Source of the DNA: Eledone cirrhosa
Lineage: Eukaryota
Reading direction: 5' to 3'
Assembly: GCA_964016885.1 (NCBI GenBank)
Contig: OZ024756.1
Coordinates: 43,710,001-43,774,000, forward strand
DNA length: 64,000 bases
Position numbers and translations under genes: made by a program. Each line of letters opens with the position of its first letter. Position 1 is the stretch's first letter. The notes beneath the pieces are model-generated. The model ran no database searches. It was not told the origin of the DNA and was given only the letters and a program-made list of their open reading frames with translations. Shown here one piece after another: positions 6,512 to 43,409 of this stretch.

Positions 6512-7151
6512 GTAAGTCTATTTCACACACATTTGTTATTTATCTAACATTAATATTAACAACAGCAATAATAATAATATTTTTTTCTACTTTTGGCACA
6601 AGGCCAGCAATTATCCGAGTGCATTACTGGTACTTTATTTTATTGACCCCGTAAGGGAGAAAGGCAAAGTTAACCTGGTGAGATTTGAACTCAATAATAA
6701 TGTTTTTAATAGCCCCACAGGACTCACATTAAGGAGACAATAAAGACAGTACAGTGTGTCTTTTTTTCTTTTTGTATGAAATAGAATATATAACAGATTA
6801 AGAAAATAAATATTTAAAAACAATTCAAACATAACAAATTCCTCAAAGGTCAGGAGACTGAGGGTTACTCATTGAGAAAGCCCACAAAAGCCACAGTCAA
6901 ACTGACCACTAGGGCAAGTCATAATAATAATTATTTCTACTTTAAGCCCAAGGTCAGCAATTTGGGCTCATTGAATTACAGGATTATACCCGAGTCCTTT
7001 ACTCCGTTATTTTACTTGATATATGTATGTATATGTATATATATGAATATATATGTATATGAATATATATGTATATATATGTATATATATATATGAATAT
7101 ATATGTATGTATATGTATATATATATATGTATATATATGTGTATATGTATT

Positions 7152-7533
7152 CATCATCATCATCAACGTTTAACGTCCGTGTTCCACGCTTGCATGGGTT
7201 TGGACGGGGGTTTTCCCTCTTGAGGCAAGAGTGATTGTCTTGCTCGCATAGGACTGTCTGGCAGGTTTTCTACAGTTGGATGCCCTTCCTAACACCAACC
7301 ACATTTACAGTGTGGGTCTGGGAGGTTTTTACCGTGTTGCCTACACGGCCACATTACAGCGTGGACTGTTTTTTTGTCGTGACACCTACACGATCTCATT
7401 TGTTTCGGCCTGGATGGTGTGGCACCAACATAACTTTACGTAGAAGGGGGCGGTGTGGATGGGTGGTGGGACGGGGGTGTATTTTGTTAGAGATGCCTAC
7501 TGACTGTAGTATGTTTTACTTTGTATTTAGGTA
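7152..7533 (-). mobile_element. RTE family A, 3'UTR-only fragment
   Basis: (ATG)n tail at 7152; matches the 3'UTR of other family A copies. Confidence 0.92.
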
Positions 7534-7558
7534 ATATATATATATACATATATATATA

Positions 7559-8517
7559 TAGAAATAGTGGACAGCTTCCGTTACCTGGGCGACAAAATCA
7601 GCAGTGGGGGAGGGTGCTCTGAAAGTACAGTAGATAGAGTCAGAACTGGTTGGAAAAAGTTCAGAGAGCTTATACCACTATTAGCCGCTAAAGGGTTCTC
7701 CCTAAGAATGAAAGGCAGGTTGTATGATGCCTGCATACGAACAGCAATGTTGCATGGCAGTGAGACCTGGGCATTGTGTGCAGAGGATATACGCAGACTA
7801 GAGAGGAACGAAGATTGCATGCTCCGCTGGATGTGTAATAGTAACATACGTGAACGGCAAAGCATATGCGAACTAAGGAAATAATTAGAAATAAGAGTGA
7901 TCAGATGTTGTTTACTCGAGAGAAGGCTACGTTGGTATGGTCAGGTGATGCGCATGAAAGACGACAGCTGTATAACAAAGTGCAGGGCAATAAAGATAGA
8001 CGGTAGCTACGGAGTAGGCAGACCCAGAAAAACCTGGGACGAGCTGATAAATTCTGACCTCACACACTTACACCTCTCCAAGACAATGTCACTGGACCGA
8101 GACCTTTGGCGGTACTCAGTAATAGAGAAGACTCGCCTTTCCTAAATACAAAGTAAAACCTACTACAGCCAGTAGGCATCTCTAACAAAATACACCCCCC
8201 CCCCCCTCACCCCCCCCCCCCCCCCCCCCATCCACACCGCCCCTTTCAATGTAAAGTTATGTTGGTGCCACAACATCCAGGCCGAAACAAATGAGATCGT
8301 GTAGGTGTCACGACAAAAAAACACACAGTCCACGCTGTAATGTGGCCGTGTAGGCAACACTGTAAATGCGGTTGGTGTTAGGAAGGGCATCCATCTGTAG
8401 AAAACCTGCCAGACAGTCCTATGCGAGCAAGACAATCACTCTTGCCTCAAGTGGGAAAACCCCCGTCCAAACCCATGCAAGCGTGGAACACGGACGTTAA
8501 ACGTTGATGATGATGAT
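7559..8517 (+). mobile_element. RTE family A, 5'-truncated copy
   Basis: DSFRYLGD...RLRWYG...GRPRKTW with one internal stop, followed by 3'UTR and (ATG)n tail. Confidence 0.95.
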
Positions 8518-8884: not shown

Positions 8885-8916
8885 ATATATATATATATAT
8901 ATGTATGTATATGGTA

Positions 8917-8962
<46 letters not shown>

Positions 8963-9200
8963 AACGAGGGAAGAGGAATACTGCGTGGTTGCACATGGGT
9001 GACATATTATAAAATTAGTCCCTCATCAGTGATTTGCCAACCATCATTGGTATTTCATCGCATTAAAAATCAGATAACTCAGGTTGGTGAGAGCAATAAC
9101 TAAAATAAGCTATTGGGACAAGTGAATCGCGTAAAGCGAGTGAGACAAGTAAACAACAAGAAGGAAAAGCAAACCGAAGGTCGGAAAACAGCAAGCAACA

Positions 9201-9250
<50 letters not shown>

Positions 9251-9279
9251 GGTAATATATATGTATATATATATATATA

Positions 9280-9322
<43 letters not shown>

Positions 9323-9363
9323 GGTAATATATATGTATATATATATATATATATATATGTATG

Positions 9364-10908
9364 TCATCATCATCACCGTTTTACATCCGTTCTTCCACGC
9401 TAGCATGGGTTAGACGGGTTGTCCTGTTGTGGGCAGTGTCTGGTCGGCTGACCTTGCCTTGCTCATACAGGAACTGATCTGGCTTGATTTCTACAGCTGG
9501 ATGCCCTTCCTAACACCAACCTCATTTACAGTGAGTGCTGGGTGTTTTTTCGTGGCGCCTACACGTCCACTTTACAGTGTGGGCTGGGTGGTTTTTGCTG
9601 TGGCACCTCAACGACCACCTTGCAATGGGGGGTGTGGGGGCATATTGTCTATATGCTTCAGCATGTACCCATGGGAGGTCGGGTACTCTGTATTACTGCG
9701 TGACGCCAGAAGTCACGGTCGTCTGTCATTGTCTTTGAGAGGTGTAATTGGGTAAGGTCGGCTTTTATCACCTCATCCCAGGTCATCTTGGGTCTCCCCA
9801 CTCCGCGGTTTCCATCAACTTCTAGTGCTCTGCACCTTTTTATGCAGCTGTCATCCTTCATACGCATCACATGTCCATACCAGCGCAACCGCCTCTCCTG
9901 CACACAGCATTTGATTCCTCTTATGCTCAGTCTCTCTCTCAATTCATTTATGCTTTGTCGTTCACGTATATTACTGTTACACATCCATCGGAGCATGCAG
10001 GCTTCGTTTCTCTCTAATCTACGTAAGTCTTCCACCTTCAGCGCCCAGGTCTCACTACCATGCAACATCGCGGTTCGGATACACGCATCATACAGTCTGC
10101 CTTTCATTCTGAGGGAGAAGCCTTTTGCCGCTAGCAGTGGTAGTAGTTCCCTAAACTTCTTCCATCCCGTTCTTACCCTAGTTATTGTACTTTCTGAACA
10201 CCCACCTCCGCTGCTAATTCGGTCACCTAGGTAGCAGAAGCTGTCTACTGTTTCTACAGGGCCCTCCCAGAGATTGGTGGTACTTGTTTCCTGTGGCTGT
10301 TTGCTGCCTGCTGTCTCAGCACAGCTGCTGCATGTGAATCCTACATTCTTAATTAAGCTTCCTGAGATCCCGCTACATCTCTTGTGTACCCATTGTTTGC
10401 ATTTGGGGCAGAGAATGGAGTTCCTACCTACACCTTTCCTACATACTGAGCAAGGCCATTTCCCTGAGGGGATCTGGGTTCTGTTTTCTCGTCTACTTAC
10501 AAGGACCTTAGTCTTTGTCATGTTGACTTTGAGACCCTTTCTTTCTAGTCCCTGCTTCCAAGTTTGGAATTTATTCTCTAGTTCTACCATAGATTCAGCT
10601 ATGAGTGCGAGGTCATCAGCATACAGGAGTTCCCATGGGCATCCGGTCTTAAACTCCTCCTTTATTGCCTGCAGGACTATGATGAACAGGAGAGGGCTAA
10701 GAACAGAGCCCTGGTGGACCCCAACCTGTACGCTAAATTCCTCGCTATACTCATTGCTAATCCTAACTTTGCTGACTGCTCCTCTATACATGGCTTGTAC
10801 CGCTTTCACAAGCCATTCATCTACTCCTTGTTTTCTAAGAGCCCACCAGATTACAGCACGTGGAACTCTGTCAAAGGCTTTCTCAAGGTCGACAAATGCC
10901 AAGTAGAG
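9364..10908 (-). mobile_element. RTE family B, 5'-truncated copy (RT with PHD insert, stop at 9658)
   Basis: FVDLEKAFD, GVHQGSVLSP, YADD and C4HC3 motif; distinct 3'UTR; (ATG)n tail. The ORF-track N-terminus is microsatellite read-through. Confidence 0.95.
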
Positions 10909-10936
10909 TATATATGTATATGGTAATATATATATG

Positions 10937-10981
<45 letters not shown>

Positions 10982-10988
<7 letters not shown>

Positions 10989-12000
10989 TTAGAAACACAC
11001 AGATACATGCGGACACACACATATATACATGAATGCATCCGCACCCAACTGTGAGTTAAGGGTGCCAACTTCACCGATGTTGCTCAATGAATGACTGGGA
11101 CAGACCAATTCAGTTGAACTAGACTGAACCAGTATCAGAGTTAAAAATACATTATGAAGAGAGAAGAAACATTTAGATATAATTAGTAATAAAATGTATC
11201 ATACCTAAACTGCTCCTAAATTCCTCAACTACGTAGTTTCGTGGCATAAAGAAAAACAATATATCATAAAGATATAGAGTCCTTGCGAGGTCTGCCGACT
11301 TATCAAGAGGATACCTCATTTTACTAGTCTCAAGAACGCGTCTACACGACGTGAGAAAGAATCCCAAAAGGCGGAGGGGGAGATAGTCACGCGATATAAC
11401 GGTTGAGAAACAGAGCTAAGCCTCTTATAACCCCGAAGAAAATACCACGGAGGCGGAGGGGGTATTTATATCGAGGCCGTAGAAGAGGTGGTGAAGAAGG
11501 CGAGAAGTATGAGTAATGGAAGCTTTCCAGCTGTCCCCACACTTCAAAGATTGCTCGACCAGAGGGAGTTATTAACAATATATTTAGAAACACACAGATA
11601 CATGCGGACACACACATATATACATGAATGCATCCGCACCCAACTGTGAGTTAAGGGTGCCAACTTCACCGATGTTGCTCAATGAATGACTGGGACAGAC
11701 CAATTCAGTTGAACTAGACTGAGCCAGTATCAGAGTTAAAAATACATTATGAAGAGAGAAGAAACATTTAGATATAATTAGTAATAAAATGTATCATACC
11801 TAAAGACGCGTTCTTGAGACTAGTAAAATGAGGTATCCTCTTGATAAGTCGGCAGACCTCGCAAGGACTCTATATCTTTATGATATATTGTTTTTGTTTA
11901 TGCCACGAAACTACGTAGTCGAGGAATTTAGGAGCAGTTTAGGTATGATACATTTTATTACTAATTATATCTAAATGTTTCTTCTCTCTTCATAATGTAT
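10982..12000. mobile_element. Penelope-like element remnant: direct repeat plus inverted partial copy
   Basis: 10982-11209 recurs at 11577-11804, and 11805-12000 is the reverse complement of ~11147-11342. This tandem plus inverted pLTR layout with a hammerhead is typical of Penelope-like elements. Confidence 0.75.
11836..11925 (+). ncRNA. Type I hammerhead ribozyme, U3-A8 core variant (second copy on the minus strand at 11222-11311)
   Basis: Stem I TCCTC/GAGGA; core TTGATAA; stem II GTCGGCA..TGCCAC with a large loop; GAAA; palindromic stem III ACTACGTAGT; cleavage triplet GTC (cut after 11920). The minus-strand copy has GTT. Folded by eye. Confidence 0.72.
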
Positions 12001-12026
12001 ATATATATATATATATGTATATGGTA

Positions 12027-12070
<44 letters not shown>

Positions 12071-12444
12071 GGTAATATATGTATCATCATCATCATCATC
12101 ATCATCATCAACGTTTAACGTCCGTGTTCCACGCTTGCATGGGTTTGGACGGGGGTAGTCCCACTTGAGGCAAGAGTGATTGTCTTGCTCGCATAGGACT
12201 GTCTGGCAGGTTTTCTACAGTTGGATGCCCTTCCTAACACCAACCACATTTACAGTGTGGGTCTGGGAGGTTTTTACCGTGTTGCCTACACGGCCACATT
12301 ACAGCGTGGACTGTGTGTTTTTTTGTCGTGACACCTACACGATCTCATTTGTTTCGGCCTGGATGGCGCGGCACCAACATAACTTTACATAGAACGGGGT
12401 GGTGTGGATGGGGTGGGGGTGGTGGCGGGACGGGGTGTATTTTG

Positions 12445-15400
12445 TTAGAGATGCCTACTGGCAAGGCGGGTCTTCTCTGTTACTGAGTACCGCCAAAGGT
12501 CACGGTCCAGTGACATTGTCTTGGAGAGGTGTAAGTGTGTGAGGTCGGAGTTTATCAGCTCATCCCATGTTTTTCTAGGTCTGCCTAATCCGTGGCTACC
12601 GTCTATCTTTATTGCCCTGCACTTTGTAATACAGCTATCGACTTTCATGCGCATCACGTGTCCATACCAACGCAGCCTTCTCTCGAGTAAACAACATCTG
12701 ATCCCTCTTATCTCTAATTTTTTCCTTAGTTCGTTTATGCTTTGCCGTTCACATATATTACTGTTACACATCCAGCGGAGCATGCAAGCTTCGTTCCTCT
12801 CTAGTCTGCGTATATCCTCTGCACACAATGCCCAGGTCTCACTACCATGCAACATTGCTGTTCGTATGCAGGCATCGTACAACCTGCCTTTCATTTTTAG
12901 GGAGAACCCTTTAGCAGCTAATAGTGGTATAAGCTCTCTGAACTTTTTCCAACCAGTTCTGACTCTAGCTACAGTACTTTCAGAGCACCCTCCCCCACTG
13001 CTGATTTTATCGCCCAGGTAACGGAAGCTGTCCACTCTTTCTATAGAACCCTCTGCGCAATTGAAAGAGCTAGTATTTTGTGGGCACTTGCTGCTACTTA
13101 TTGCACCAGAACACCGGCCACATGTAAAGTCTATGTTCTTAGTTAGCTTACCTGTGATCCCACTACATCTTTTATGCACCCATACTTTGCATTTAGGACA
13201 TAAGATGGAGTTTCTACCTACGCCTTTCCTACATACCGAGCACGACCATTTCCCAGAAGGGACCGCCGCCTTGTTTTCTTTCCTACAAACTAGAACTTTG
13301 GTCTTAGCCAGGTTAATTTTAAGTCCTTTTGACTCTAGGCCGTGCTTCCATGTTTGGAATTTCTTCTCTAGCTCGGCCATTGATTCCGCTATGAGTGTCA
13401 GGTCGTCTGCGTATAGGAGTTCCCATGGGCAGCCTGTCTTGAACTCCTCTGTTATAGCCTGAAGGGCAATAATAAATAGTAGGGGGCTGAGAACAGAGCC
13501 CTGATGGACGCCAACTTTTACGCTAAACTCTTCACTATATTCGTTGTTAATTCTAACTTTGCTGACTGTTTCTTTATACATGGCTTGTATAGCCCTCACA
13601 AGCCATTCGTCAACGCCTAGTTTTCTAAGAGCCCACCAGATAATGGAGCGGGGGACTCTGTCGAAGGCTTTCTCCAGGTCGACAAAAGCTAAGTAGAGGG
13701 GTTTACCTTTAGCTAGGTACTTCTCCTGTAGTTGTCGTACTATGAAAAGAGCGTCTGTGGTGCTTTTGCCTGACACAAACCCGAACTGCATTTCATCTAG
13801 ATCAATTCTCTCTCTGATTAGTTGCGCTATTACTTTTTCCGTGACCTTCATGACCTGGTCGATTAATTTAATGCCTCTATAGTTACTCCTATCTAGGGCG
13901 TCTCCTTTACCCTTATAACAGTTAACGATGATGCTGCTATGCCAGTCCTTCGGAACAACCCCATTCTGTACGACTTGGTTAACTATGCGGGTGACCATGG
14001 TGTGTCCCACCGTGCCAGATGCCTTCAGCATCTCAGCAACTATTTCCGAAGGCCCAGCCGCCTTACCAGTCTTCATATCCTTGATTGCCTTACTTATTAT
14101 ACTCCCCTCGACTAACACTGCTGGTCCCTCTATCGGGTCGATATGGGGGAGACTGTCTTTCTCCCATTTATTCTCCTCATTTAGTAGCCTTTCATAGTGA
14201 CACTTCCAAGCTACCTTCTTATCAGTGTCGGTGATGGCAAGTATGCCATCATCGTTAAGTACACACTTCTCCCCGACAATATCACGGTTTTCCTTGACGC
14301 ATTGCCTGGCAATCCTGAACACCTCACGTTTTTGGTCATCGCGTTGTAGAACATGCTTGAACTTTCTTTCCTCAGCTTCCCTTCTTGCTAAGTACACTTC
14401 TCTCCTAGCTTCCCTCCTGGCCACTTGATAGTCTACTCTACTTCCCCCATCCCGCCATACTTTCCAAGCCTGCTTTTTGGCCTTAATTGACCCCTCCACC
14501 CTACTGTTCCACCACCATGTTACTCTCCTCCTGCCTACAGGCCTGCTCCAGCCACAGACTTCGTCTGTCGCCAACAGCAGGTTTGCTTTCAGAAATTCCC
14601 GCTGTCCCTCTATATTGTCCGATTCTAGATGCTCTTCCTTACTGTCGAAAGCATCAAGTAATATGCTTTGAAATTTATTTCTGGCTGTGGGGTCCTTTAG
14701 TTTCCATATTTTCCTCCTGAGGATAGTCCTCTTCTGCTGTCGAGTACGTCTCGTCCTGACTATGAGGTCGCTAATTATCAGTCTATGTTGGGAGGTGCAT
14801 TCTTCATGGGGGAGGGATTTAGTGTTTACAACAGACACTCTGTCACGTCTTCTGGTAAGGATATAATCTACCTGGCTTGTGTGTTCCTCGGATCTATAGG
14901 TGATCAGGTGATTGTCACGTTTTTTGAAGTTAGTGTTACAGATAGTTAGGTTATTTGCATCACAGTATTCCAGGACTCTGGAGCCTTCCTCATTTCTAGT
15001 ACCAAACCCATAGCCTCCATGGATTTCGTCGTAGCCGTCACAATGTTGTCCAACGTGACCATTTAGGTCGCCTGCAATAATTATATAGTCACTGTCAGAT
15101 ATTTGGGAGGTAGTTAGCAACAGTGTCTCATAGAATCTGTCTTTTATAGTGCCGGGCAGTCCGGATTGGGGTGCGTACGCAGATATTACTGTCACCGTAG
15201 TTCTATTGAGGACAAGTCTTATTTTAATTATTCTGTCGTTCACTCTATTTACGTCTATTATCTTATCTGCCCACTTTTCTGCTACCATGATTCCTACTCC
15301 ACCCAGCCCATCGTCGTTTCCCACCCAGAAAAGCTTATAACATCGTTTTTTACCCTCAATGAATCTAGCAGACCCACCCCTCCACCTGGTCTCTTGAATA

Positions 15401-15735
15401 CAACAAACATCGACCTCCTTACGTTCAAGCATTTCTACAACCTCGTTAGCGCGACCCTTTAGGGTGCCTACATTTATGGTACCAACTCTGAAGTTTTGGG
15501 TTGCATTTGGAGGGTGGGGGTGGTGGGGGGCGGGAGGAGATAGGGTTATGTTAGCCATCCGCGGACGAAACAAAGAGGAGTGCTCGCATTCTCGTCCACG
15601 AGGTGAATTTGACTTTAACTTTGGCATTTTCGCTCTGAGCGTCCAGATTTTTCTCTCCCTTCCACTCTCCAGGATTCCGCAGTCCGTCCGTCCATCCATC
15701 CATCCATCCATCATATATCGAAGGCAACCGGGCAA
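12445..15735 (-). CDS. RTE-clade LINE ORF: APE endonuclease + reverse transcriptase with internal PHD finger; uninterrupted
   Basis: EN motifs GTINVGTL, CIQETRW, SAYAPQ, GDLNGH, VDYIL, SQHRLI; RT motifs NYRGI, QFGF, FVDLEKAFD, QGSVLSP, YADD, FRYLG; RTE C-terminus RRLRWYGH..GRPRKTW. True start codon uncertain (e.g. ATG at 15627). Confidence 0.97.
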   Translation of the reverse strand: MPGCLRYMMDGWMDGRTDCGILESGRERKIWTLRAKMPKLKSNSPRGRECEHSSLFRPRMANITLSPPAPHHPHPPNATQNFRVGTINVGTLKGRANEVVEMLERKEVDVCCIQETRWRGGSARFIEGKKRCYKLFWVGNDDGLGGVGIMVAEKWADKIIDVNRVNDRIIKIRLVLNRTTVTVISAYAPQSGLPGTIKDRFYETLLLTTSQISDSDYIIIAGDLNGHVGQHCDGYDEIHGGYGFGTRNEEGSRVLEYCDANNLTICNTNFKKRDNHLITYRSEEHTSQVDYILTRRRDRVSVVNTKSLPHEECTSQHRLIISDLIVRTRRTRQQKRTILRRKIWKLKDPTARNKFQSILLDAFDSKEEHLESDNIEGQREFLKANLLLATDEVCGWSRPVGRRRVTWWWNSRVEGSIKAKKQAWKVWRDGGSRVDYQVARREARREVYLARREAEERKFKHVLQRDDQKREVFRIARQCVKENRDIVGEKCVLNDDGILAITDTDKKVAWKCHYERLLNEENKWEKDSLPHIDPIEGPAVLVEGSIISKAIKDMKTGKAAGPSEIVAEMLKASGTVGHTMVTRIVNQVVQNGVVPKDWHSSIIVNCYKGKGDALDRSNYRGIKLIDQVMKVTEKVIAQLIRERIDLDEMQFGFVSGKSTTDALFIVRQLQEKYLAKGKPLYLAFVDLEKAFDRVPRSIIWWALRKLGVDEWLVRAIQAMYKETVSKVRINNEYSEEFSVKVGVHQGSVLSPLLFIIALQAITEEFKTGCPWELLYADDLTLIAESMAELEKKFQTWKHGLESKGLKINLAKTKVLVCRKENKAAVPSGKWSCSVCRKGVGRNSILCPKCKVWVHKRCSGITGKLTKNIDFTCGRCSGAISSSKCPQNTSSFNCAEGSIERVDSFRYLGDKISSGGGCSESTVARVRTGWKKFRELIPLLAAKGFSLKMKGRLYDACIRTAMLHGSETWALCAEDIRRLERNEACMLRWMCNSNICERQSINELRKKLEIRGIRCCLLERRLRWYGHVMRMKVDSCITKCRAIKIDGSHGLGRPRKTWDELINSDLTHLHLSKTMSLDRDLWRYSVTEKTRLASRHL

Positions 15736-15921
15736 GCGATAGTATAGGCCTCTGGCTTATGATTTGGTCCGCGTAATAATAATAATGGTGATGCGTGGGG
15801 GTGGGGGGCTCTGGCTTATAATAATGATGGTGATGCGTGGGGGGGGGGCTCTGGCTTATGATTGGTCCACGTATTAAGTATGGTGGTGTGTGGGGGCGGG
15901 AGGGAGGGGTGTGGGGTAGCT

Positions 15922-16206
15922 AGCTGGAAGGTTATGAATGTTTAACAAGCGATTTAACAAAAAGCAAAACTGCAAGATTTGTTCTGTTCAATACGACAAA
16001 AACACCGTATTTAAACCTTAAATAGATAACAAAAAATACAGATTTCGGATTTTGCGAGATTGGATGTTTGGACTATGTACGAAATTGAGCGTGGAATGGA
16101 TAGAGAAAAATTTGTACTTTACGATTTACATGAGTACACCATAGTAGAAATAATTGAAGCAGCGGTGGATTGGCGAAAGTGAATAAACATGAAGGAGAAC
16201 TTATCT

Positions 16207-16237
<31 letters not shown>

Positions 16238-16824
16238 AGCTAAGAGAGAAAGAGAGGGGGGAGAAGGGGGAGAGATATTGTGGCTGACCGCAGCCCCTCG
16301 TGGAGTAGCAGGAGGGTGAAGGGGTGGAGCGGATTTTTGACTTTCAAGTAGCATACTATATATATTTAAAGTAATTTATAAGTAGAATGGGAAGGATTTT
16401 GTTTTTTGTTTGAGAATACGATAGAATTAAGGAATTGGACGATACGATAGAATTAAGAATGGGAAGGATTTTGTTTTTTTTTTGTTTGGGGATACGATAG
16501 AATTAAGGAATTGGAGAATACGATAGAATTAATGAATTGATGAGCTGGAAGGTTATGAATGTTTAACAAGCGATTTAACAAAAAGCAAAACTGCAAGATT
16601 TGTTCTGTTCAATACGACAAAAACACCGTATTTAAACCTTAAATAGATAACAAAAAATACAGATTTCGGATTTTGCGAGATTGGATGTTTGGACTATGTA
16701 CGAAATTGAGCGTGGAATGGATAGAGAAAAATTTGTACTTTACGATTTACATGAGTACACCATAGTAGAAATAATTGAAGCAGCGGTGGATTGGCGAAAG
16801 TGAATAAACATGGAGAACTTATCT

Positions 16825-16855
<31 letters not shown>

Positions 16856-17444
16856 AGCTAAGAGAGAAAGAGAGGGGGGGAAGGGGGAGAGATATTGTGG
16901 CTGACCGCAGCCCCTCGTGGAGTAGCAGGAGGGTGAAGGGGTGGAGCGGATTTTTGACTTTCAAGTAGCATACTATATATATTTAAAGTAATTTATAAGT
17001 AGAATGGGAAGGATTTTGTTTTTTGTTTGAGAATACGATAGAATTAAGGAATTGGACGATACGATAGAATTAAGAATGGGAAGGATTTTGTTTTTTTTTT
17101 GTTTGGGGATACGATAGAATTAAGGAATTGGAGAATACGATAGAATTAATGAATTGATGAGCTGGAAGGTTATGAATGTTTAACAAGCGATTTAACAAAA
17201 AGCAAAACTGCAAGATTTGTTCTGTTCAATACGACAAAAACACCGTATTTAAACCTTAAATAGATAACAAAAAATACAGATTTCGGATTTTGCGAGATTG
17301 GATGTTTGGACTATGTACGAAATTGAGCGTGGAATGGATAGAGAAAAATTTGTACTTTACGATTTACATGAGTACACCATAGTAGAAATAATTGAAGCAG
17401 CGGTGGATTGGCGAAAGTGAATAAACATGAAGGAGAACTTATCT

Positions 17445-17479
<35 letters not shown>

Positions 17480-18083
17480 AGCTAAGAGAGAGATAGAGGG
17501 GAAGAAAGAGAGGGGGGGGAAGGGGGAGAGATATTGTGGCTGACCGCAGCCCCTCGTGGAGTAGCAGGAGGGTGAAGGGGTGGAGCGGATTTTTGACTTT
17601 CAAGTAGCATACTATATATATTTAAAGTAATTTATAAGTAGAATGGGAAGGATTTTGTTTTTTGTTTGAGAATACGATAGAATTAAGGAATTGGACGATA
17701 CGATAGAATTAAGAATGGGAAGGATTTTGTTTTTTTTTTGTTTGGGGATACGATAGAATTAAGGAATTGGAGAATACGATAGAATTAATGAATTGATGAG
17801 CTGGAAGGTTATGAATGTTTAACAAGCGATTTAACAAAAAGAAAAACTGCAAGATTTGTTCTGTTCAATACGACAAAAACACCGTATTTAAACCTTAAAT
17901 AGATAACAAAAAATACAGATTTCGGATTTTGCGAGATTGGATGTTTGGACTATGTACGAAATTGAGCGTGGAATGGATAGAGAAAAATTTGTACTTTACG
18001 ATTTACATGAGTACACCATAGTAGAAATAATTGAAGCAGCGGTGGATTGGCGAAAGTGAATAAACATGAAGGAGAACTTATCT

Positions 18084-18118
<35 letters not shown>

Positions 18119-18725
18119 AGCTAAGAGAGAGATAGAGGGGAAGAAAGAGAGGGGGGGGGGGAAGGGGGAGAGATATTGTGGCTGACCGCAGCCCCTCGTG
18201 GAGTAGCAGGAGGGTGAAGGGGTGGAGCGGATTTTTGACTTTCAAGTAGCATACTATATATATTTAAAGTAATTTATAAGTAGAATGGGAAGGATTTTGT
18301 CTTTTGTTTGAGAATACGATAGAATTAAGGAATTGGACGATACGATAGAATTAAGAATGGGAAGGATTTTGTTTTTTTTTTGTTTGGGGATACGATAGAA
18401 TTAAGGAATTGGAGAATACGATAGAATTAATGAATTGATGAGCTGGAAGGTTATGAATGTTTAACAAGCGATTTAACAAAAAGCAAAACTGCAAGATTTG
18501 TTCTGTTCAATACGACAAAAACACCGTATTTAAACCTTAAATAGATAACAAAAAATACAGATTTCGGATTTTGCGAGATTGGATGTTTGGACTATGTACG
18601 AAATTGAGCGTGGAATGGATAGAGAAAAATTTGTACTTTACGATTTACATGAGTACACCATAGTAGAAATAATTGAAGCAGCGGTGGATTGGCGAAAGTG
18701 AATAAACATGAAGGAGAACTTATCT

Positions 18726-18760
<35 letters not shown>

Positions 18761-19363
18761 AGCTAAGAGAGAGATAGAGGGGAAGAAAGAGAGGGGGGGA
18801 AGGGGGAGAGATATTGTGGCTGACCGCAGCCCCTCGTGGAGTAGCAGGAGGGTGAAGGGGTGGAGCGGATTTTTGACTTTCAAGTAGCATACTATATATA
18901 TTTAAAGTAATTTATAAGTAGAATGGGAAGGATTTTGTTTTTTGTTTGAGAATACGATAGAATTAAGGAATTGGACGATACGATAGAATTAAGAATGGGA
19001 AGGATTTTGTTTTTTTTTTGTTTGGGGATACGATAGAATTAAGGAATTGGAGAATACGATAGAATTAATGAATTGATGAGCTGGAAGGTTATGAATGTTT
19101 AACAAGCGATTTAACAAAAAGCAAAACTGCAAGATTTGTTCTGTTCAATACGACAAAAACACCGTATTTAAACCTTAAATAGATAACAAAAAATACAGAT
19201 TTCGGATTTTGCGAGATTGGATGTTTGGACTATGTACGAAATTGAGCGTGGAATGGATAGAGAAAAATTTGTACTTTACGATTTACATGAGTACACCATA
19301 GTAGAAATAATTGAAGCAGCGGTGGATTGGCGAAAGTGAATAAACATGAAGGAGAACTTATCT

Positions 19364-19398
<35 letters not shown>

Positions 19399-20000
19399 AG
19401 CTAAGAGAGAGATAGAGGGGAAGAAAGAGAGGGGGGAAGGGGGAGAGATATTGTGGCTGACCGCAGCCCCTCGTGGAGTAGCAGGAGGGTGAAGGGGTGG
19501 AGCGGATTTTTGACTTTCAAGTAGCATACTATATATATTTAAAGTAATTTATAAGTAGAATGGGAAGGATTTTGTCTTTTGTTTGAGAATACGATAGAAT
19601 TAAGGAATTGGACGATACGATAGAATTAAGAATGGGAAGGATTTTGTTTTTTTTTTGTTTGGGGATACGATAGAATTAAGGAATTGGAGAATACGATAGA
19701 ATTAATGAATTGATGAGCTGGAAGGTTATGAATGTTTAACAAGCGATTTAACAAAAAGCAAAACTGCAAGATTTGTTCTGTTCAATACGACAAAAACACC
19801 GTATTTAAACCTTAAATAGATAACAAAAAATACAGATTTCGGATTTTGCGAGATTGGATGTTTGGACTATGTACGAAATTGAGCGTGGAATGGATAGAGA
19901 AAAATTTGTACTTTACGATTTACATGAGTACACCATAGTAGAAATAATTGAAGCAGCGGTGGATTGGCGAAAGTGAATAAACATGAAGGAGAACTTATCT

Positions 20001-20039
<39 letters not shown>

Positions 20040-20506
20040 AGCTAAGAGAGAGATAGAGGGGAAGAAAGAGAGGGGGGGGAAGGGGGAGAGATATTGTGGC
20101 TGACCGCAGCCCCTCGTGGAGTAGCAGGAGGGTGAAGGGGTGGAGCGGATTTTTGACTTTCAAGTAGCATACTATATATATTTAAAGTAATTTATAAGTA
20201 GAATGGGAAGGATTTTGTTTTTTGTTTGAGAATACGATAGAATTAAGGAATTGGACGATACGATAGAATTAAGAATGGGAAGGATTTTGTTTTTTTTTTG
20301 TTTGGGGATACGATAGAATTAAGGAATTGGAGAATACGATAGAATTAATGAATTGATGAGCTGGAAGGTTATGAATGTTTAACAAGCGATTTAACAAAAA
20401 GCAAAACTGCAAGATTTGTTCTGTTCAATACGACAAAAACACCGTATTTAAACCTTAAATAGATAACAAAAAATACAGATTTCGGATTTTGCGAGATTGG
20501 ATGTTT
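15922..20506. repeat. Tandem array of ~620-640 bp units: 7 full copies plus a ~150-bp partial copy
   Basis: AGCTGGAAGGTTATGAATG recurs at 15922, 16543, 17160, 17799, 18441, 19079, 19716 and 20359. Units differ mainly in (TA)/(TG)/G-run lengths and one short indel. Confidence 0.97.
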
Positions 20507-20540
<34 letters not shown>

Positions 20541-20571
20541 TGTATATGTATATATATATATGTATATGGTA

Positions 20572-20615
<44 letters not shown>

Positions 20616-20690
20616 GGTAATATATATATATATATATATATATGTATATGGTAATATATATATATATATGTATATGGTAATATATATGTA

Positions 20691-21321
20691 TTTCATTTCA
20701 TTTCATTTCATTTGAGTTTGAGTCCATGCTCAGGCCAAGTCGAAGACTCCACCCTCAGAGTCTGGTGTGGTTGCCAGGTTGGATTCTCTGTTTAATTTTG
20801 ACATGTGTAGGAGCGAGTTTGAGTCAGTTTGTGCTCGTTGTGTATATCCTGGGAGATGGGGTTCATCTCTAATGGTGCTTAAGTATCTATCCAGCTGCAA
20901 TTTGAATGATTCCACACTGCATCCTGATAGATTTCTGACATGTACCGGAATGGAGTTGAATAGTTGTGCCCCTCGAACCAACAGACTTGACTCTCGCAGG
21001 GTTTTTGCTGCCTGGCCAGCCTTTTTGTTGATTGGTGGTAGCTGGCAGCGTCTTCCGTGGTGCAGTGAGTGGTAGGTTTTGATACCAAAGTTTGGCACCT
21101 TTTGCTCTATCATTTTCCAAATGTATATAATTCGGTATCGCTCAAATCTTCTTTCTATTGAGTACATCTTCAAGGTTTTGAGTCTTTGCCAATAGTCCAG
21201 GTCCCTCGTTTCTGAGAAGTATGAGGTAAAATTTCTTTGGAGCGATTCCATCTTAGATAGTTGGCCCTTTGTTGTTGGTGACCACAACTGAGAACAGTAG
21301 TCAATCCTCGGAAGTATCATA
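20691..21321 (-). mobile_element. CR1-clade LINE 3' fragment
   Basis: PRIDYCSQLWSP..MESLQRNFT..FNSIP; (AAATG)n tail; near-identical to 25921-26480. Confidence 0.9.
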
Positions 21322-21761
21322 CTGGACCGAGATCTTTGGCGGTACTCAGTAATAGAGAAGACCCGTCTTACCTAAATACAAAGTAAAACCTACTACAGTC
21401 AGTAGGCATCTCTAACAAAATACACCCCCGTCCCACCACCCCCACCCCATCCACACCGCCCCTTTCAATGTAAAGTTATGTTGGTGCCACAACATCCAGG
21501 CCGAAACAAATGAGATCGTGTAGGTGTCATGACAAAAAAAACACAGTCCACGCTGTAATGTGGCCGTGTAGGCAACACAGTAAAAACCTCCCAGCCCCAC
21601 ACTGTAAATGTGGTTGGTGTTAGGAAGGGCATCCAGCTGTGGAAAACCCGCCAGACAGTCCTATGCGAGCAAGACAACCACTCTTGCCTCAAGTGGGAAA
21701 ACTCCCGTCCAAACCCATGCAAGCGTGGAACATGGACGTTAAATGATGATGATGATGATGA
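21321..21761 (+). mobile_element. RTE family A 3' fragment fused 5'-to-5' to the CR1 fragment
   Basis: Begins ACTGGACCGAGATCTTTGG immediately after the CR1 sequence; ends in (ATG)n. Confidence 0.92.
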
Positions 21762-22009
21762 TATATATATATGTATATGGTAATATATATACATATATAT
21801 AGCACAGGCTTGTGCAGGATATGTTATAATTTATTCCTCCACACCCAGCTGAGTCATAACTGACATATGGTCTTTTTTATCTTTTTTTCGTGAAATCGCT
21901 GTGTGTGTTTTTATATATAAATATACACACACACACACACAAACACACGTGTGTGTGTATATATATATATATGCACACACGATTTATTTGCTTTTGTCTT
22001 GTGATTGTG

Positions 22010-22945
22010 TTCAAAATAAAGGTCTCTAACTGGAGGTCAGTAAGTGAGGGGGGGGGGGCATTTCAATTGATTAACTCCAGTATTTGACTGGTATTTTCTT
22101 TTGACTCCCCGAAAGGATGAAAGGAAAAGTTGCCTTTGACAGGATTTGAACTCAGTGTAAAGAGAGAAATATTTTTCTGGCTCTTTATGTTCAGTCCTAA
22201 AACTAATTGGCAGATCGGTAGAGCATCCGACAGAACGTTTTTGTAATATTTGTTTGGAGTTCAAATCCTACCAAAGGTCAACTTTGCTTTTCATCCTTTT
22301 TGATAAAGTATGATACCGAGCAAGTGCTAAGCGGTTGGGTCATTATAATTGTCCCTCCTCAGGCAAGTGCTAGGGGGAGGGGTCATTATAATTGCCCCTC
22401 CTCAGGCAAGTGCTAGGGGGAGGGGTCATTATAATTGTCCCTCCTCAGGCAAGTGCTAGGGGGAGGGGTCATTATAATTGCCCCTCCTCGGGCAAATGCT
22501 AGAAGGTGTGGTCATTATAATTGCCTCTCCTCGGGCAAGTGTTAGGGGGTGGGGTCATTATAATTGCCTCTCCTCGGGCAAGTGCTAGGGGGTGGGGTCA
22601 TTATAATTGCCCCTCCTCTGGCAAGTGCTAGGGGGCGGGGTCATTATAATTGCCCCTCCTCCCCTTCCTCTGGCAATTGCTAGCCTTGTGCCTGAATTAG
22701 AATGGTTAAAGGAGGGTGATGGTGGATTGATTGTAATCGGGAGAGCATCAGACACCATGCTCTGTGGCACAGAGTTACGGACCTTTATGGACCGAGTTCA
22801 AATCTCGGCAAGGTTAACTTTGCCTTTCATTCTTATGGGGTCGATAAAATATAGTAGCAGTAATACACTGGGGTTGATTTAATCAACTTTCCCCTCCCCT
22901 TCAAATTGCTGGACTTGTGCCTAAATAAAAAAAATTATTATTGCT
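22010..22945. mobile_element. Cluster of three family-1 SINE copies (one minus, two plus)
   Basis: Core and tail motifs as above; the middle copy contains the 43-bp minisatellite. Confidence 0.7.
22321..22660. repeat. 43-bp minisatellite, 8 copies, near-palindromic unit
   Basis: CAAGTGCTAGGGGGAGGGGTCATTATAATTGCCCCTCCTC(A/G)GG starting at 22321, 22364 ... 22622. Confidence 0.95.
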
Positions 22946-23390: not shown

Positions 23391-23682
23391 TCATCATCAT
23401 CATTTTACGTCTGCTTTTCCCTGCTTGCAAGGGTGGGACGGGAACTGATTCTGGCTTGATTTCTACAGCTGGATGCCCTTCCTAACACCAACCTCATTTA
23501 CAGTGAGTGCTGCGTGCTTTTTTGCCGTGGCACCTCCACGACCACTTTGCAGCTGAGTAAACTGGAGCAATGTGAAATAAAGTGTCTTGCTCAAGGAAAC
23601 AACACATCACCCGGTCTGAGAATTGAACTCACAAACTTTCGATTGCAAGGCCAATGCTCTAACCACTAAGCCATGTGCCTTC
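23391..23682 (-). mobile_element. CORE-type SINE (family 2), internally deleted
   Basis: Reverse complement of the 49599-49943 element, lacking ~35 bp between the CORE and the RTE-derived part. Confidence 0.85.
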
Positions 23683-24325
23683 ATATATATATATATATAA
23701 TATATATATATGTAATATATATTATATATATATATATATATTATATATATATATATTATATATATATATATAATATATATATTATATAATATATATAATA
23801 TATATATTATATATATATATAATATATATATTATATATATAATATATATTATATATATAATATATATATTATATATATAATATATATATTATATATATAT
23901 TATATATATATATATAATATATATATTATATATAATATATATATTATATATATAATATATATTATATATATATATATTATATATATAATATATATATTAT
24001 ATATATATTATATATATATATATAATATATATATTATATATAATATATATATTATATATATAATATATATATTATATATATATATATTATATATATAATA
24101 TATATATTATATATATATTATATATATATAATATATATATTATATATAATATATATATTATATATATAATATATATATTATATATATATATATTATATAT
24201 ATAATATATATATTATATATATATTATATATATATTATATATATATTATATATAATATATATATAATATATATATTATATATATAATATATATTATATAT
24301 ATATTATATATATAATATATATATT

Positions 24326-25920: not shown

Positions 25921-28900
25921 ATTTCATTTCATTTGAGTTTGAGTCCATGCTCAGGCCAAGTCGAAGACTCCAGCCTCAGAGTCTGGTGTGGTTGCCAGGT
26001 TGGATTCTCTGTTTAATTTTGACATGTGTAGGAGTGAGTTTGAGTCAGTTTGTGCTCGTTGTGTATATCCTGGGAGATGGGGTTCATCTCTAATGGTGCT
26101 TAAGTATCTATCCAGCTGCAATTTGAATGATTCCACACCGCATCCTGATAGATTTCTGACATTTACCGGAATGGAGTTGAATAGTTGTGCCCCTCGAACC
26201 AACATACTTGACTCTCGCAGGATTTTTGCTGCCTGGCCAGCCCTTTTGTTGATTGGTGGTAGCTGGCAGCGTCTTCCGTGGCGCAGTGAGTGGTAGGTTT
26301 TGATACCAAAGTTTGGCACCTTTTGCTCTATCATTTTCCAAATGTATATAATTCGGTATCGCTCAAATCTTCTTTCTATTGAGTACATCTTCAAGGTTTT
26401 GAGTCTTTGCCAATAGTCCAGGTCCCTCGTTTCTGAGAAGTATGAGGTAAAATTTCTTTGGAGCGATTCCATCTTAGATAGTTGGCCAGGGGGTTTTCAT
26501 TGTTGAGGTATCTCTTGATTTGAAGGTGCGCAAGATCCACCCGCTGTACTTTCTTGCAGTAAGACAGACTGAGTCAAGGTGTTCTCTGAATTTTAGGCTG
26601 GTTCCCATGTGGATGCCTAAATCTTTCACACACTGTTTTTCCATTATTTGTTGTCCTGATGGGTTTCTGTAGTTTGTTGTATTTTTCAGATCTTGATCTG
26701 TTCCGTAGCGAATTAGTTCAAACTTCTTATCATTGAACAACATGTTGTTTGTTTCCTGCCATTTGTATATGGTGGTCAGGTCCTTTTGTAAGGCCTCTGT
26801 ATCCACCTCATCTTTGATTTGTTTCTTGACCCTGGTGTCATCAGCAAAGGATGAGACGTTGCTGGTTGTATCTTCATCTATGTCAGAGATGAGGATGAGA
26901 AACAGGATCAGGCCGAGTACTGTACCCTGAGGAACACTGCTGGTCACAGGTGATGGTGTTGAATGGGTTCCATTCACAGTGACTGTTTGAGTTCTATTTG
27001 TAAGGAACTCATGTATCCATGTACCAACTTTTCCTCCTACTCCTAGCTTTCGAAGTTTGTGTCCCAGGATGCCATGATCTACCTTGTCAAATGCCTTGGC
27101 AAAGTCGAGGTAAATAACATCTGTGTTGTATCCATTCTCTAGATTTTCTAGGATTTGGTCATGGTGTGCCAGTAGTTGGGAAAGACATGATCTACCTAAC
27201 CTGAATCCATGCTGGTTGCAATTCATCAGATTGTTGGATTCCAGGAACTCAACCAGTTTTCCACGAACTATTCTTTCGAAGACCTTGATAATGTGTGATG
27301 TCAGTGAGATTGGTCGGTAGTTCTTTGGTTTTGATTTGCTGTCCCCTTTATGTATTGGAGTTACGTGTGCTTTTTTATATGTATTTGGTATTTTGCCATT
27401 CTCCATAGATTCCTTCCATATCATGTAAAGGGGTTTCAACAATTGTACCTTGCAGTTTTTAAGTATCATGGCATTGAAACCATCAGGCCCTGCAGCCGAG
27501 TGCATGGAGAGCTTGTCTATGGCTCTTTCTATGTCTTCTGGGTTGAAATCAATGTCGGATAGGGTAGGTTTAGTATGGTCGATATCCTTGAAGAATTCTC
27601 CTGGGTCATGGATCTTCATGGTTTTAGATGGCTCACTGAAGACACTTTTATACTGTTGACCCAACATTTCTGCCATTTCAATAGGGTTATTCACTACATC
27701 CCCATTTTGTCTCTGGAGAGGTCCTATTGTTGACTTGGTATTCGAGTATTTCTTTGCAAAACTGTAGAAACATTTTGGATTTTTCTTGATGTTTTCTATG
27801 GCTCTCTTTTCTGCATTGTTACGTTCTTCATCATAGTGTTGTTTTAGATTGTCTTCTAATCTGTATATTTGGTCAAGGACTTTCTGTAGTTCATGTTTTG
27901 ATGTCAGCTTAGATGTTTTGTTTCTTAGTCTTGACCTTTTGCGCATCAGGATCTTTCGCTCCCGTGGTACAGGTTTTTTTGTGGATTTGGTTTTCTTAAG
28001 AGGAATATGTTTTGCACATATTTCTTCGATCTTGTTTAAGAATTTCTTGTGTTTATCTGGCCCAGTAAGGTAGAGATCCCAGTCAATGATTTGTAACTGG
28101 TTGTTAATAGTTTCCCAATTTGCCTGGTGATAATCATACCTGCATAGCTTTGGCATGTCCTTTTGTTTAAGAGTTGTGGCATTGGGCTCATTACCAATGT
28201 GTAAATGCATTTCAATAATATTGTGGTCTGAAAGGATTGTTGGGGTTGAGTGAAGGTCAAATAGCGTGTCCTCGTTGTTGGTGAAAACCAAGTCGATCGT
28301 ATTATTATTTCTAGTTGCTTCTGTCATCATTTGTTTGAGGTATAATTTCTCTGTGACTTCCAACAGTTTGGCTGCCTGTATTTGTTCAGCTTTTGTCCCC
28401 AGTTTTAGTATGTGTCCATGTGATGTTAGGGAAGTTGAAGTCACCAAGGAGGATAATGTCTGGCATTGGACTCGCCATGTTTCCCAGAATTTGTTGGAGC
28501 TTTGTCAGTGGCTCAGTGAAGGATAATGTTGGGCTGTTTGGCGGTCTGTACATTATTGTTACAACTGTATTAAGTTGGATGATTTTTATGCACAGCAGGT
28601 TGCAGTAGGCATTTGATTCATTGACAAGTTCTATGCATGCATAGGTATCATGGATATACATGATAACGCCCCCATGGGATCTGCCTTGTCTATCACATCT
28701 GAAGATGTTGAATCCATTCATTGAGATTTCGCTGTTGCGGATGTTTTCGTTGAGATGACTTTCAGTAATTCCAATTATTTTGGAGTTGTTTTCTGTTGGT
28801 AATTCTTCCAAGAAAGGGACTTTACACCGTTTTGTTTTCAGATAAAGACCCTGGATATTTGCTGTTATTACGCTTGTTGTACCTGATACATCTGCCCTAT

Positions 28901-28995
28901 TGTTGGCAAGACTGTTGTAGTTGCTGGGACTGTGCTGACTGGATATTCGGTCTGCTGGGCTGTCTGTATTTGTTGTATGTGCCCTGTAAGTCCAT
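25921..28995 (-). mobile_element. CR1-clade LINE, near-complete ORF2 (EN+RT) broken by two frameshifts
   Basis: ORF pieces 28386-28811, 26474-28447 and 25951-26472: GITESHL, FRCDR, YRPP, GDFNFP, IDLVFTN, SDH; NQHGF, YLDFAKAFD, VPQGTVLG, FADD, KDLGI; (AAATG)n tail. Clade assigned from motif style only. Confidence 0.88.
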
Positions 28996-35845: not shown

Positions 35846-36625
35846 TCATCATCATCATCATTTTACGTCTGCTTTTCCCTGCATCCAACGGAGCATGCTT
35901 GCCTCATTTCTCTCCAGCCGTCGCATATCTTCTGCGGTTGCTGCCCATGTCTCACTACCATGCAGCATCGCGCTCCTCACACAGGTATCATACAACCGGC
36001 CTTTCGTACGCAGGGAGAAACCCTTCTTCGTCAACAGAGGAATGGTTGGTATGGACACGTGATGCGCATGAAAGTCGATAGCTGTATAACAAAGTGCAGG
36101 GCAATAAAGATAGACGGTAGCCACGGAATAGGCAGACCTAGAAAAACCTGGGATGAGCTGATAAACTCCGACCTCGCACACTTACACCTCTCCAAGACAA
36201 TGTCACTGGACCGAGACCTTTGGCGGTACTCAGTAACAGAGAAGACCCGCCTTGCCAGTAGGCATCGCTAACAAAATACACCCCGTCCCGCCACCACCCC
36301 CACCCCATCCACACCACCCGTTCTATTTTAAGTTATGTTGGTGCCGCGCCATCCAGGCCGAAACAAATGAGATCGTGTAGGTGTCACGACAAAAAAACAC
36401 ACAGTCCACGCTGTAATGTGGCCGTGTAGGCAACACGGTAAAAACCTCCCAGACCCACACTGTAAATGTGGTTGGTGTTAGGAAGGGCATCCAACTGTAG
36501 AAAACCTGCCAGACAGTCCTATGCGAGCAAGACAATCACTCTTGCCTCAAGTGGGACTACCCCCGTCCAAACCCATGCAAGCGTGGAACACGGACGTTAA
36601 ACGTTGATGATGATGATGATGATGA
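35846..36625. mobile_element. Inverted chimera: RTE family C fragment (-, 35846-36042) joined 5'-to-5' to RTE family A fragment (+, ~36045-36625)
   Basis: Junction GTCAACAGAGGAA-TG-GTTGGTATGGACACG; (ATG)n tails at both outer ends. Confidence 0.88.
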
Positions 36626-36647
36626 TATATATATATATATTATATAT

Positions 36648-39012: not shown

Positions 39013-39362
39013 ATCATTTCATTTCATTCATTTCATTTTTACGTCCACTTTTTCCCTGCTTGCAAGGGTGGGACGGGAACTGATTTTGGCTTGATTTCTA
39101 CAGCTGGATGCCCTTCCTTATACCAACCTCATTTACAGTGAGAGCTGGGTGCTTTTTTTGCCGTGGCACCTCCACGACCACTTTGCAGTGGAATGATAGG
39201 GACTGGGGTCCCTATCATCTCATTTCTACAGCTGAGTAAACTGGAGCAATGTGAAATAAAGTGTCTTGCTCAAGGAAACAACACACCACCTGGTCTGAGA
39301 ATTGAACTTACAACCTTTCGATTGCAAGGCCAATGCTCTAACCACTTAGCCATGTGCCTCCA
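39013..39362 (-). mobile_element. CORE-type SINE (family 2), full length
   Basis: Reverse complement of 49599-49943. Confidence 0.9.
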
Positions 39363-39403
39363 TATATATATATATATTATATATATATATATATTATATA
39401 TAT

Positions 39404-43354: not shown

Positions 43355-43409
43355 ATATATATATAAATATATCACGATAAATTAACGGAGGCATATATAT
43401 ATATGACAT

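What the first reader, a model, noticed from the sequence alone, without database searches (positions are those of the whole stretch)
20691..21761. CR1/RTE 5'-to-5' chimera with both tails outward: possible inter-family twin priming
Seen: a minus CR1 3' fragment abuts a plus RTE-A 3' fragment at ~21321 with no target DNA between them, and the GGTAA-marked flank lies on both outer sides. Known: twin priming yields inversions from a single L1 RNA. Inference: two different LINE RNAs were each primed from one strand of the same strand-symmetric (TA)n break and the cDNAs were joined.
Basis: partly seen in the sequence, partly recalled or inferred. Interest (0 to 1): 0.7.

Follow-up and report, generated by a model that had tools for sequence, protein, structure and literature searches.

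The report
Two retrotransposons fused head to head
Two unrelated jumping-gene fragments are joined back to back through four shared letters inside a TA repeat that has been hit many times; they most likely arrived one after the other rather than in one two-RNA event, which would make this an ordinary product of an insertion hot spot.

Summary
The structure is real. A CR1-like LINE 3' end (minus, 20690-21324) joins an RTE-like 3' end (plus, 21321-21762) through a 4-nt overlap, ACTG, with both tails outward. No second copy of the junction was found.

The evidence for one event does not hold up:
- The GGTAA marker occurs 11 times across a 13-kb tract holding at least four other inserts.
- The marker units beside the composite differ.
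- Neither family makes long target-site duplications here (0 of 35 RTE, 2 of 71 CR1 at ≥10 nt).
- The RTE half looks older (4-6 changes in 430 nt against 1-2 in 611; p 0.02-0.17).
- 4 of 32 other CR1 copies with a TA tract at the tail also join non-TA DNA directly.
- Among 263 LINE 5' ends, unexplained head-to-head junctions (4) are not in excess over head-to-tail ones (2).

Best reading (0.55): CR1 inserted beside an existing RTE 5' end and joined it by microhomology. Rivals: two-RNA priming (0.2), later deletion (0.2). Two-RNA opposite-orientation inserts are already described for human L1 in cells; only the inter-clade version would be new. Reads neither confirmed nor refuted the junction. 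The scan noted two-sided priming before only for Penelope-like elements of this genome.

The parts
20508..20691 (.). Left TA tract with four GGTAA-marked units; also the 5' flank of the full-length RTE-A to its left
20690..20713 (-). (GAAAT)n 3' tail of the CR1-like element, 4.8 units
   Evidence: same tail on family copies
20714..21324 (-). 5'-truncated CR1-like LINE: last about 197 codons of ORF2 and a short 3' UTR; young family with 220 exact 3' 20-mer matches; 1 change from the family majority in 611 nt
21321..21324 (.). 4-nt microhomology ACTG shared by both halves; the junction
21321..21742 (+). 5'-truncated RTE-A: last about 17 codons and 3' UTR; older subfamily, nearest full-length-matching relative 9 differences in 422 nt
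21743..21762 (+). (ATG)n 3' tail of RTE-A, 6.7 units
21762..21801 (.). Right TA tract with the last GGTAA-marked unit (terminal type), followed by single-copy flank
8886..21801 (.). Multi-hit cluster: one ancestral marked TA tract split by a 244-nt repeat (8960-9203), RTE-B minus (about 9365-10909), a rearranged 1-kb repeat (10985-11996), full-length RTE-A minus (12084-20507) and the CR1/RTE composite
35847..36626 (.). Second composite of the same layout in this window: RTE-C minus 3' piece joined, with 2 extra nt at 36043-36044, to RTE-A plus 3' piece; both tails outward, TA on both sides

Best explanation
The two halves are most likely two separate insertions into one TA tract: an RTE-A copy likely came first, and a younger CR1-like copy was then likely primed in the TA tract just left of the RTE 5' end and attached its cDNA end by the 4-nt microhomology ACTG inside the RTE, removing the TA spacer and probably a few RTE bases. 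Shown: the geometry, the microhomology, the multi-hit tract, and the family's habit of blunt or slightly deleted sites. Inferred: the order of events and the size of the loss.
For: (1) The tract holds at least four other inserts and 11 marker units in one orientation; the marker is absent from the rest of 464 kb around the window and from 1.30 Mb of other loci. Repeated hits are the local norm. (2) No long TSD is expected from either family: perfect repeats of 10 nt or more at non-TA sites in 0 of 35 RTE and 2 of 71 CR1 copies. CR1 copies nested in other repeats mostly show changes between a 13-nt duplication and a 15-nt loss. (3) Of 33 CR1 copies with a TA tract at the tail, 5 join non-TA DNA directly at the 5' end: this one and L108, L143, L145, L176 (curated by eye from 34). 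(4) 22 of 174 TA-tract edges in this window touch a LINE or SINE 5' end, against 4 of 316 in evenly spaced genome samples. The expected number of such junctions among 220 CR1 copies is 0.1-1.0. (5) Age: RTE half 6 minority substitutions in 430 nt (4 without two polymorphic sites; 3 of 17 CpGs decayed), CR1 half 1 in 611 (1 of 14 CpGs); Fisher p 0.02-0.17; Bayes factor 3-12 for RTE older against same age, 0.13-0.17 for CR1 older. (6) Direct junctions to a neighbouring element: 4 unexplained head-to-head and 2 head-to-tail, against an edge ratio of 38:28; p = 1.0. (7) L046 (nested insert) and L327 (fold-back) show other routes to the same geometry.
Against: The age gap is not decisive: both halves are among the younger copies of their groups; some RTE differences could be inherited from an unsampled source; a partial relative differs by only 2 of 200 nt (L344); the CpG-only comparison is not significant (p 0.61). 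The census is small and not random, and 2 of the 4 unexplained head-to-head junctions lie in this window. Larger CR1 target deletions could not be confirmed (L146 and L163 are explained by extra DNA in the comparator), so the model needs CR1 to land close to the RTE's existing 5' end. No empty or RTE-only allele was seen. Head-to-tail controls (L037, L170) could themselves be template jumps.
Confidence: 0.55

Rival explanations
1. Two-RNA priming, the first reader's idea: the two 3' ends of one break in the strand-symmetric TA tract each primed a different LINE RNA at its tail, and the two cDNAs annealed at ACTG.
For: Both tails are intact and face outward; 4-nt microhomology; the same locus-specific marker on both sides. 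Three more two-tailed direct junctions: window 36043 (RTE-C/RTE-A), L054 (SINE/RTE-A), L333 (RTE-A/RTE-A). Precedent: nine two-transcript insertions in L1-expressing cells, those in opposite orientation read as ligation of DNA ends extended from different templates (PMC11702581, section 7). Activity periods of the two families overlap near 1% divergence.
Against: The RTE half leans older. No demonstrable TSD. No excess over head-to-tail junctions. It needs a rare family (220 matches) and an older RTE subfamily at one break, while a younger RTE-A subfamily exists (13,002 matches of its 3' motif; near-identical copies). Of 8 tails-outward RTE pairs within about 5 kb fetched from C1, only 1 was directly joined, and that one is a fold-back.
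Confidence: 0.2
2. Later deletion: both elements inserted separately, each with its own TA flank and longer 5' part, and a later microhomology-mediated deletion between two ACTG sites fused them.
For: 4-nt microhomology; unequal ages fit; internal deletions of 60-630 nt are seen in 4 of 111 CR1 copies examined (window 26487, L145, L175, L191), one 5 kb away.
Against: It needs a third event soon after a very young CR1 insertion (1 change in 611 nt). The CR1 length is ordinary for this mostly truncated family. Those internal deletions may have arisen during reverse transcription.
Confidence: 0.2
3. Reverse order (RTE attached to an existing CR1 5' end) or an assembly join between two repeats.
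For: RTE-A copies also join non-TA DNA directly at tract edges. Laid contigs and reads listed no piece bridging the junction.
Against: Bayes factor 0.13-0.17 for CR1 older. The locus-specific marker continues on both sides and the right flank is single-copy, which argues for true local continuity. Collapsed contigs drop single-copy variants of repeats.
Confidence: 0.05

Closest known systems
5'-truncated LINE insertions with short target-site deletion and 5' microhomology (human L1; PMC11702581, passages)
   Same: 5' junction with 2 nt or more of microhomology, little or no TSD, loss of up to about 20 nt at the target
   Different: Here a CR1-like element, and the DNA joined is the 5' end of another LINE in a TA tract
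Two-transcript, opposite-orientation insertions made by L1 ORF2p in cells (PMC11702581 section 7, read whole)
   Same: Two templates in opposite orientation, joined with microhomology
   Different: There: one RT system, de novo clones; the three examples in its Fig. 3B show a TSD (legend). Here: two LINE clades (27% identity in RT), fixed in an assembly, no proven TSD, ages probably unequal
Bridges made of two synchronous L1 insertions, with a tail at both ends, in tumour translocations (bioRxiv 10.1101/2024.08.27.596794, passages)
   Same: One insert with two outward tails made of two retrotransposition products
   Different: There the flanks come from two loci and a reciprocal product exists; here both flanks belong to one tract
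Classical twin priming (Ostertag and Kazazian 2001; seen only as described in the two papers above)
   Same: Inverted halves joined 5' to 5' by microhomology
   Different: It uses one RNA and an internal second primer, so one tail. L312 and L041 show this classical form for RTE-A in this genome

Membership tests
CR1-clade LINE (left half) | ORF2 with APE-type endonuclease and reverse transcriptase | tested here: met
   Longer copy at 25921-28994: RVT_1 E 2e-28, Exo_endo_phos E 2e-5
CR1-clade LINE (left half) | Short 3' UTR ending in a microsatellite tail; no or very short TSD (defining status recalled) | tested here: met
   (GAAAT)n tail; TSD under 6 nt in 60 of 71 copies at non-TA sites
CR1-clade LINE (left half) | RT groups with named CR1 references in a tree | not testable with these tools
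   The best 120 homologues carry no clade name; solved structures give only L1 and R2. The label CR1 rests on recalled motifs
CR1-clade LINE (left half) | Separate ORF1 | not tested
   Four copies reach about 5.6 kb of the reference, leaving room for one; not analysed
RTE-clade LINE (right half) | One long ORF with endonuclease and RT | tested here: met
   1103-aa frame at 12445-15756 with Exo_endo_phos, RVT_1 and a PHD finger
RTE-clade LINE (right half) | Microsatellite-like 3' tail | tested here: met
   (ATG)n; such tails described in PMC6007223 (passages)
RTE-clade LINE (right half) | TSD of 7-15 nt (PMC6007223, passages) | tested here: not met
   0 of 35 copies at non-TA sites have a perfect repeat of 10 nt or more, 30 of 35 under 6 nt. 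RTE-like is therefore safer than RTE
RTE-clade LINE (right half) | RT groups with named RTE references in a tree | not testable with these tools
   No named references available; label recalled
Classical twin priming | One RNA template, second primer internal, one tail | tested here: not met
   Two unrelated templates, two tails
Two-RNA opposite-orientation insertion | Two templates inverted, microhomology or extra bases at the joint | tested here: met
   ACTG overlap
Two-RNA opposite-orientation insertion | One TSD around the whole composite | tested here: inconclusive
   The 28-nt match is between two different units of a repeated marker
Two-RNA opposite-orientation insertion | Both halves of the same age | tested here: inconclusive
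   Leans against: p 0.02-0.17, Bayes factor 3-12
Two-RNA opposite-orientation insertion | Halves co-segregate; no one-half allele | not testable with these tools
   Only collapsed contigs and RAD reads were available

The most novel reading that the evidence does not exclude
Breaks in strand-symmetric TA tracts of this genome are primed from both ends by different retroelement RNPs, so that LINEs of different clades (CR1 and RTE, RTE-C and RTE-A, SINE and RTE-A) co-insert as two-tailed head-to-head chimeras in the germ line; 4 of the junctions among 263 sampled 5' ends would be such events.
Probability: 0.2. Interest if true: 0.6.

Novelty: new member of a known kind. Interest (0 to 1): 0.27.

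Why it matters
On the best reading it is a tidy example of how TA microsatellites collect LINEs and how microhomology at the 5' junction erases the spacer, and a warning that repeated microsatellite units can pass for a TSD. If the two-RNA reading held, it would show that reverse transcriptases of two LINE clades can act at one break in the germ line and that the second DNA end is free for another RNP. That would bear on the open question of how second-strand synthesis and 5' joining work, and it would offer a route to inter-clade chimeras.

Tried and rejected
- Multi-copy composite element: rejected; 1 of 40 scored places spans the junction.
- Right half as a full-length SINE with a natural 5' end at 21321: rejected; relatives continue upstream into the ORF.
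- Nested insertion of CR1 into RTE: rejected; no RTE 5' part lies beyond the CR1 tail.
- Fold-back duplication as in L327: rejected; flanks are direct, not inverted.
- Paralogous empty site: none; the right flank is single-copy.
- Fusion gene: the minus frame stays open 47 nt past the junction, but the piece lacks RT and endonuclease (no Pfam hit).
- Read check: runs X15, X16, X18 (contigs) and X22 (RAD reads) laid on 20714-21742 listed no piece bridging the junction; 28,662 pieces were not shown, so this is neither support nor refutation. The left tract was not examined with reads.
- A direct genome-wide pattern search for CR1/RTE pairs could not be run with a gap wide enough.
- Apparent 100-290-nt CR1 target deletions: L146 and L163 are explained by extra DNA in the comparator; L144, L177 and L141 are unresolved. 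L176 looked like a join into a repeat interior but may be the natural end of an inverted, Penelope-like layout.
- Literature searches listed no report of a CR1/RTE two-tailed chimera; the library lacks most subscription papers. No supplements were read; Fig. S7 of PMC11702581 may bear on how many two-RNA inserts have two tails.

Full report
Observation. The sequence shows an (ATTTC)n run at 20690-20713, 611 nt of a LINE on the minus strand, 422 nt of another LINE on the plus strand, and an (ATG)n run at 21743-21762. In relatives, the left element continues past the joint as ACTG-TTCC and the right element enters it as TGTC-ACTG, so the halves overlap by ACTG at 21321-21324. A query across the junction matched whole only at the window among 40 scored of 531 candidates. 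The right flank is single-copy.

What the halves are. The left family is small and young: 220 exact matches of a 3' 20-mer, the 29 best copies 99.0-99.7% identical, full length about 5.6 kb, endonuclease and RT domains in a longer copy at 25921-28994. The right family is abundant: two variants of its 3' motif match 2,571 and 13,002 times, and a 1103-aa endonuclease-RT-PHD frame lies at 12445-15756. The two RTs share 27% identity over 206 residues, so they are different clades. The names CR1 and RTE rest on recalled features; no call gave a clade name. The host looks like an octopus by recall and by earlier AI notes; I did not test this. In Octopus vulgaris both RTE and CR1 families have recently active copies (PMC13282606, passages).

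The marker is not a one-event TSD. The GGTAA-marked unit occurs 11 times, all in one orientation, from 8908 to 21774, and nowhere else in 464 kb around the window or in 1.30 Mb of other loci. It marks one ancestral TA tract that now holds a 244-nt repeat, an RTE-B copy, a rearranged 1-kb repeat, a full-length RTE-A and the composite. The units beside the composite share 28 nt and then differ; ten units are followed by TGTA and only the last by CATA. At non-TA sites a perfect duplication of 10 nt or more was found in 0 of 35 RTE and 2 of 71 CR1 copies. The marker therefore shows that no single-copy DNA was lost, but not that one event made the composite.

How the CR1 family inserts. I examined 109 copies from elsewhere plus the two in the window (L228 lacked the anchor motif, L223 gave no alignment chain, L154 ends in N, L147 duplicates L146). 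Where a copy sits in another repeat, the target mostly changes by between a 13-nt duplication and a 15-nt loss, in some with 5' microhomology (L112: 2 nt). Of 34 copies that the script scored with a TA tract at the tail, I dropped L155 by eye and counted L120, L136 and L205 as TA on both sides. That leaves 5 of 33 whose 5' end joins non-TA DNA directly: this one, L108, L143, L145 and L176. In this window 22 of 174 TA-tract edges touch a LINE or SINE 5' end; in twenty evenly spaced 10-kb samples 4 of 316 do. The product predicts 0.1 to 1.0 such junctions among 220 copies. One case, picked out after the fact, is not beyond chance.

Ages. Against 63 relatives the RTE half has 6 minority substitutions in 430 nt, two of them at polymorphic sites, with 3 of 17 CpGs decayed; against 64 relatives the CR1 half has 1 in 611 nt, plus one site split about evenly. 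Fisher p is 0.02 to 0.17, and the Bayes factor for RTE older against equal age is 3 to 12. The nearest CR1 relative differs at 2 of 611 sites; the nearest RTE relative over the whole stretch at 9 of 422, among 29 best hits and 18 targeted copies. One other place matches an 81-nt stretch exactly but differs at 9 of 341 sites. Against a firm conclusion: a partial copy differs at 2 of 200 sites, both halves rank young in their groups, and the CpG-only test gives p 0.61.

Census. Among 263 tailed LINE copies with a visible 5' end (109 CR1, 103 RTE-A, 39 RTE-B, 12 RTE-C; not a random sample: loci chosen by similarity or motif, 14 chosen pairs, 464 kb around the window, 200 kb evenly spaced), direct head-to-head junctions fell into these groups. 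Unexplained with two outward tails: this one, window 36043 (RTE-C/RTE-A), L054 (SINE/RTE-A) and L333 (RTE-A/RTE-A, same place as L308). Explained otherwise: L046 (nested insert, host halves 3807/3809), L327 (843-nt inverted duplication at 98.6% that includes about 310 nt of flank), L312 and L041 (short 5' inversions). L339 joins an RTE-A 5' end to a tailless CR1-like piece. Direct head-to-tail junctions: L037 and L170. Four against two matches the 38:28 ratio of 5' ends to tails at tract edges (p = 1.0). Of 8 tails-outward pairs fetched from C1, only L327 was directly joined.

Reads. Twenty-four runs were listed. Three contig sets and one RAD run laid on 20714-21742 showed loose ends of both families at the junction and no listed bridging piece. 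Collapsed contigs cannot show alleles here, so the junction is unconfirmed outside the assembly and co-segregation is untested.

Mechanism. Most likely (0.55) the RTE-A copy was present first. The CR1-like RT was primed on the top strand in the TA tract to its left, stopped after about 630 nt, and its cDNA end paired with ACTG near the RTE 5' end, so the spacer was lost. Geometry, microhomology and family behaviour are shown; order and loss are inferred. Two-RNA priming (0.2) and a later deletion (0.2) leave the same sequence. Reverse order or misassembly: 0.05.

Comparison with known cases. Short target deletions with 5' microhomology are described for truncated L1 inserts (PMC11702581, passages). 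The same paper reports nine two-transcript inserts and reads the opposite-orientation ones as ligation of DNA ends extended from different templates (section 7). Bridges with a tail at each end, from two synchronous L1 events, occur in tumour translocations (10.1101/2024.08.27.596794, passages). Six literature searches listed no such case. Earlier notes of this scan describe two-sided priming in TA tracts for Penelope-like elements of this genome, from one RNA; they are unchecked and raise the prior only slightly.

Verdict. A real and clean junction, most likely a product of sequential insertion in a hot spot. Interest 0.27; the inter-clade co-insertion reading has probability 0.2 and would deserve 0.6.

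Noticed in passing
window 12084-20507 (minus): Full-length RTE-A with an open 1103-aa frame and about seven tandem 640-nt 5' units (15900-20507), 96-99% alike; the 'satellite' left of the finding is the element's own 5' array.
   Followed up: partly
window 35847-36626: Second two-tailed head-to-head junction, RTE-C minus and RTE-A plus, with 2 extra bases; the RTE-C piece also has an internal deletion of about 300 nt.
   Followed up: partly
window 25921-28994 (minus): A second copy of the 220-match CR1-like family only 5 kb from the first, same strand, 98.6% identical, with a 61-nt internal deletion; not a local duplicate by its differences.
   Followed up: partly
L341+L327+L342 (G000:C1:5343180-5347660): Fold-back: an RTE-B 3' end and about 310 nt of its flank are duplicated in inverted orientation (843 nt, 98.6%), joined at the truncated 5' ends.
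   Followed up: partly
L339:140-1312 (same place as L297): RTE-A 5' end joined directly to a 455-nt, tailless CR1-like RT fragment in the opposite orientation with an open frame; it could be internal priming on a foreign RNA or a join to an old fragment.
   Followed up: partly
L054:622-1930: A nearly full-length RTE-tailed SINE and an RTE-A joined head to head through 9 nt that also occur further down the RTE.
   Followed up: partly
window 23395-23750, 39037-39400, 43400-43790, 49600-49922 and many loci (5' limits approximate): Abundant SINE of about 330 nt with a tRNA-like-looking head (not tested; ARAGORN found no tRNA) and a 3' end shared with RTE-B and RTE-C.
   Followed up: no
window 10985-11996: Young repeat (97-99% to other copies) with an internal duplication and an inverted end, a layout recalled from Penelope-like inserts.
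   Followed up: no
CR1 loci L111, L112, L129, L131, L160-L164 and others: About 20 of 109 CR1-like copies are truncated at nearly the same place, 35-40 nt past the 3' anchor motif; six of them carry a short tandem repeat of the last 18 nt, which suggests a fixed RT stop or pause.
   Followed up: no
window 7151-8517: RTE-A minus and RTE-A plus head to head with tails outward, separated by about 25 nt of TA: the spaced form of the same layout.
   Followed up: partly
G000 around C17:43.65-43.71 Mb: An inverted duplication of several kb left of the window (RTE pieces at about -62000..-56800 and -7100..-1500 relative to the window start mirror each other).
   Followed up: no
window 22320-22661: 43-nt minisatellite, 8 copies, 92% matches.
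   Followed up: no
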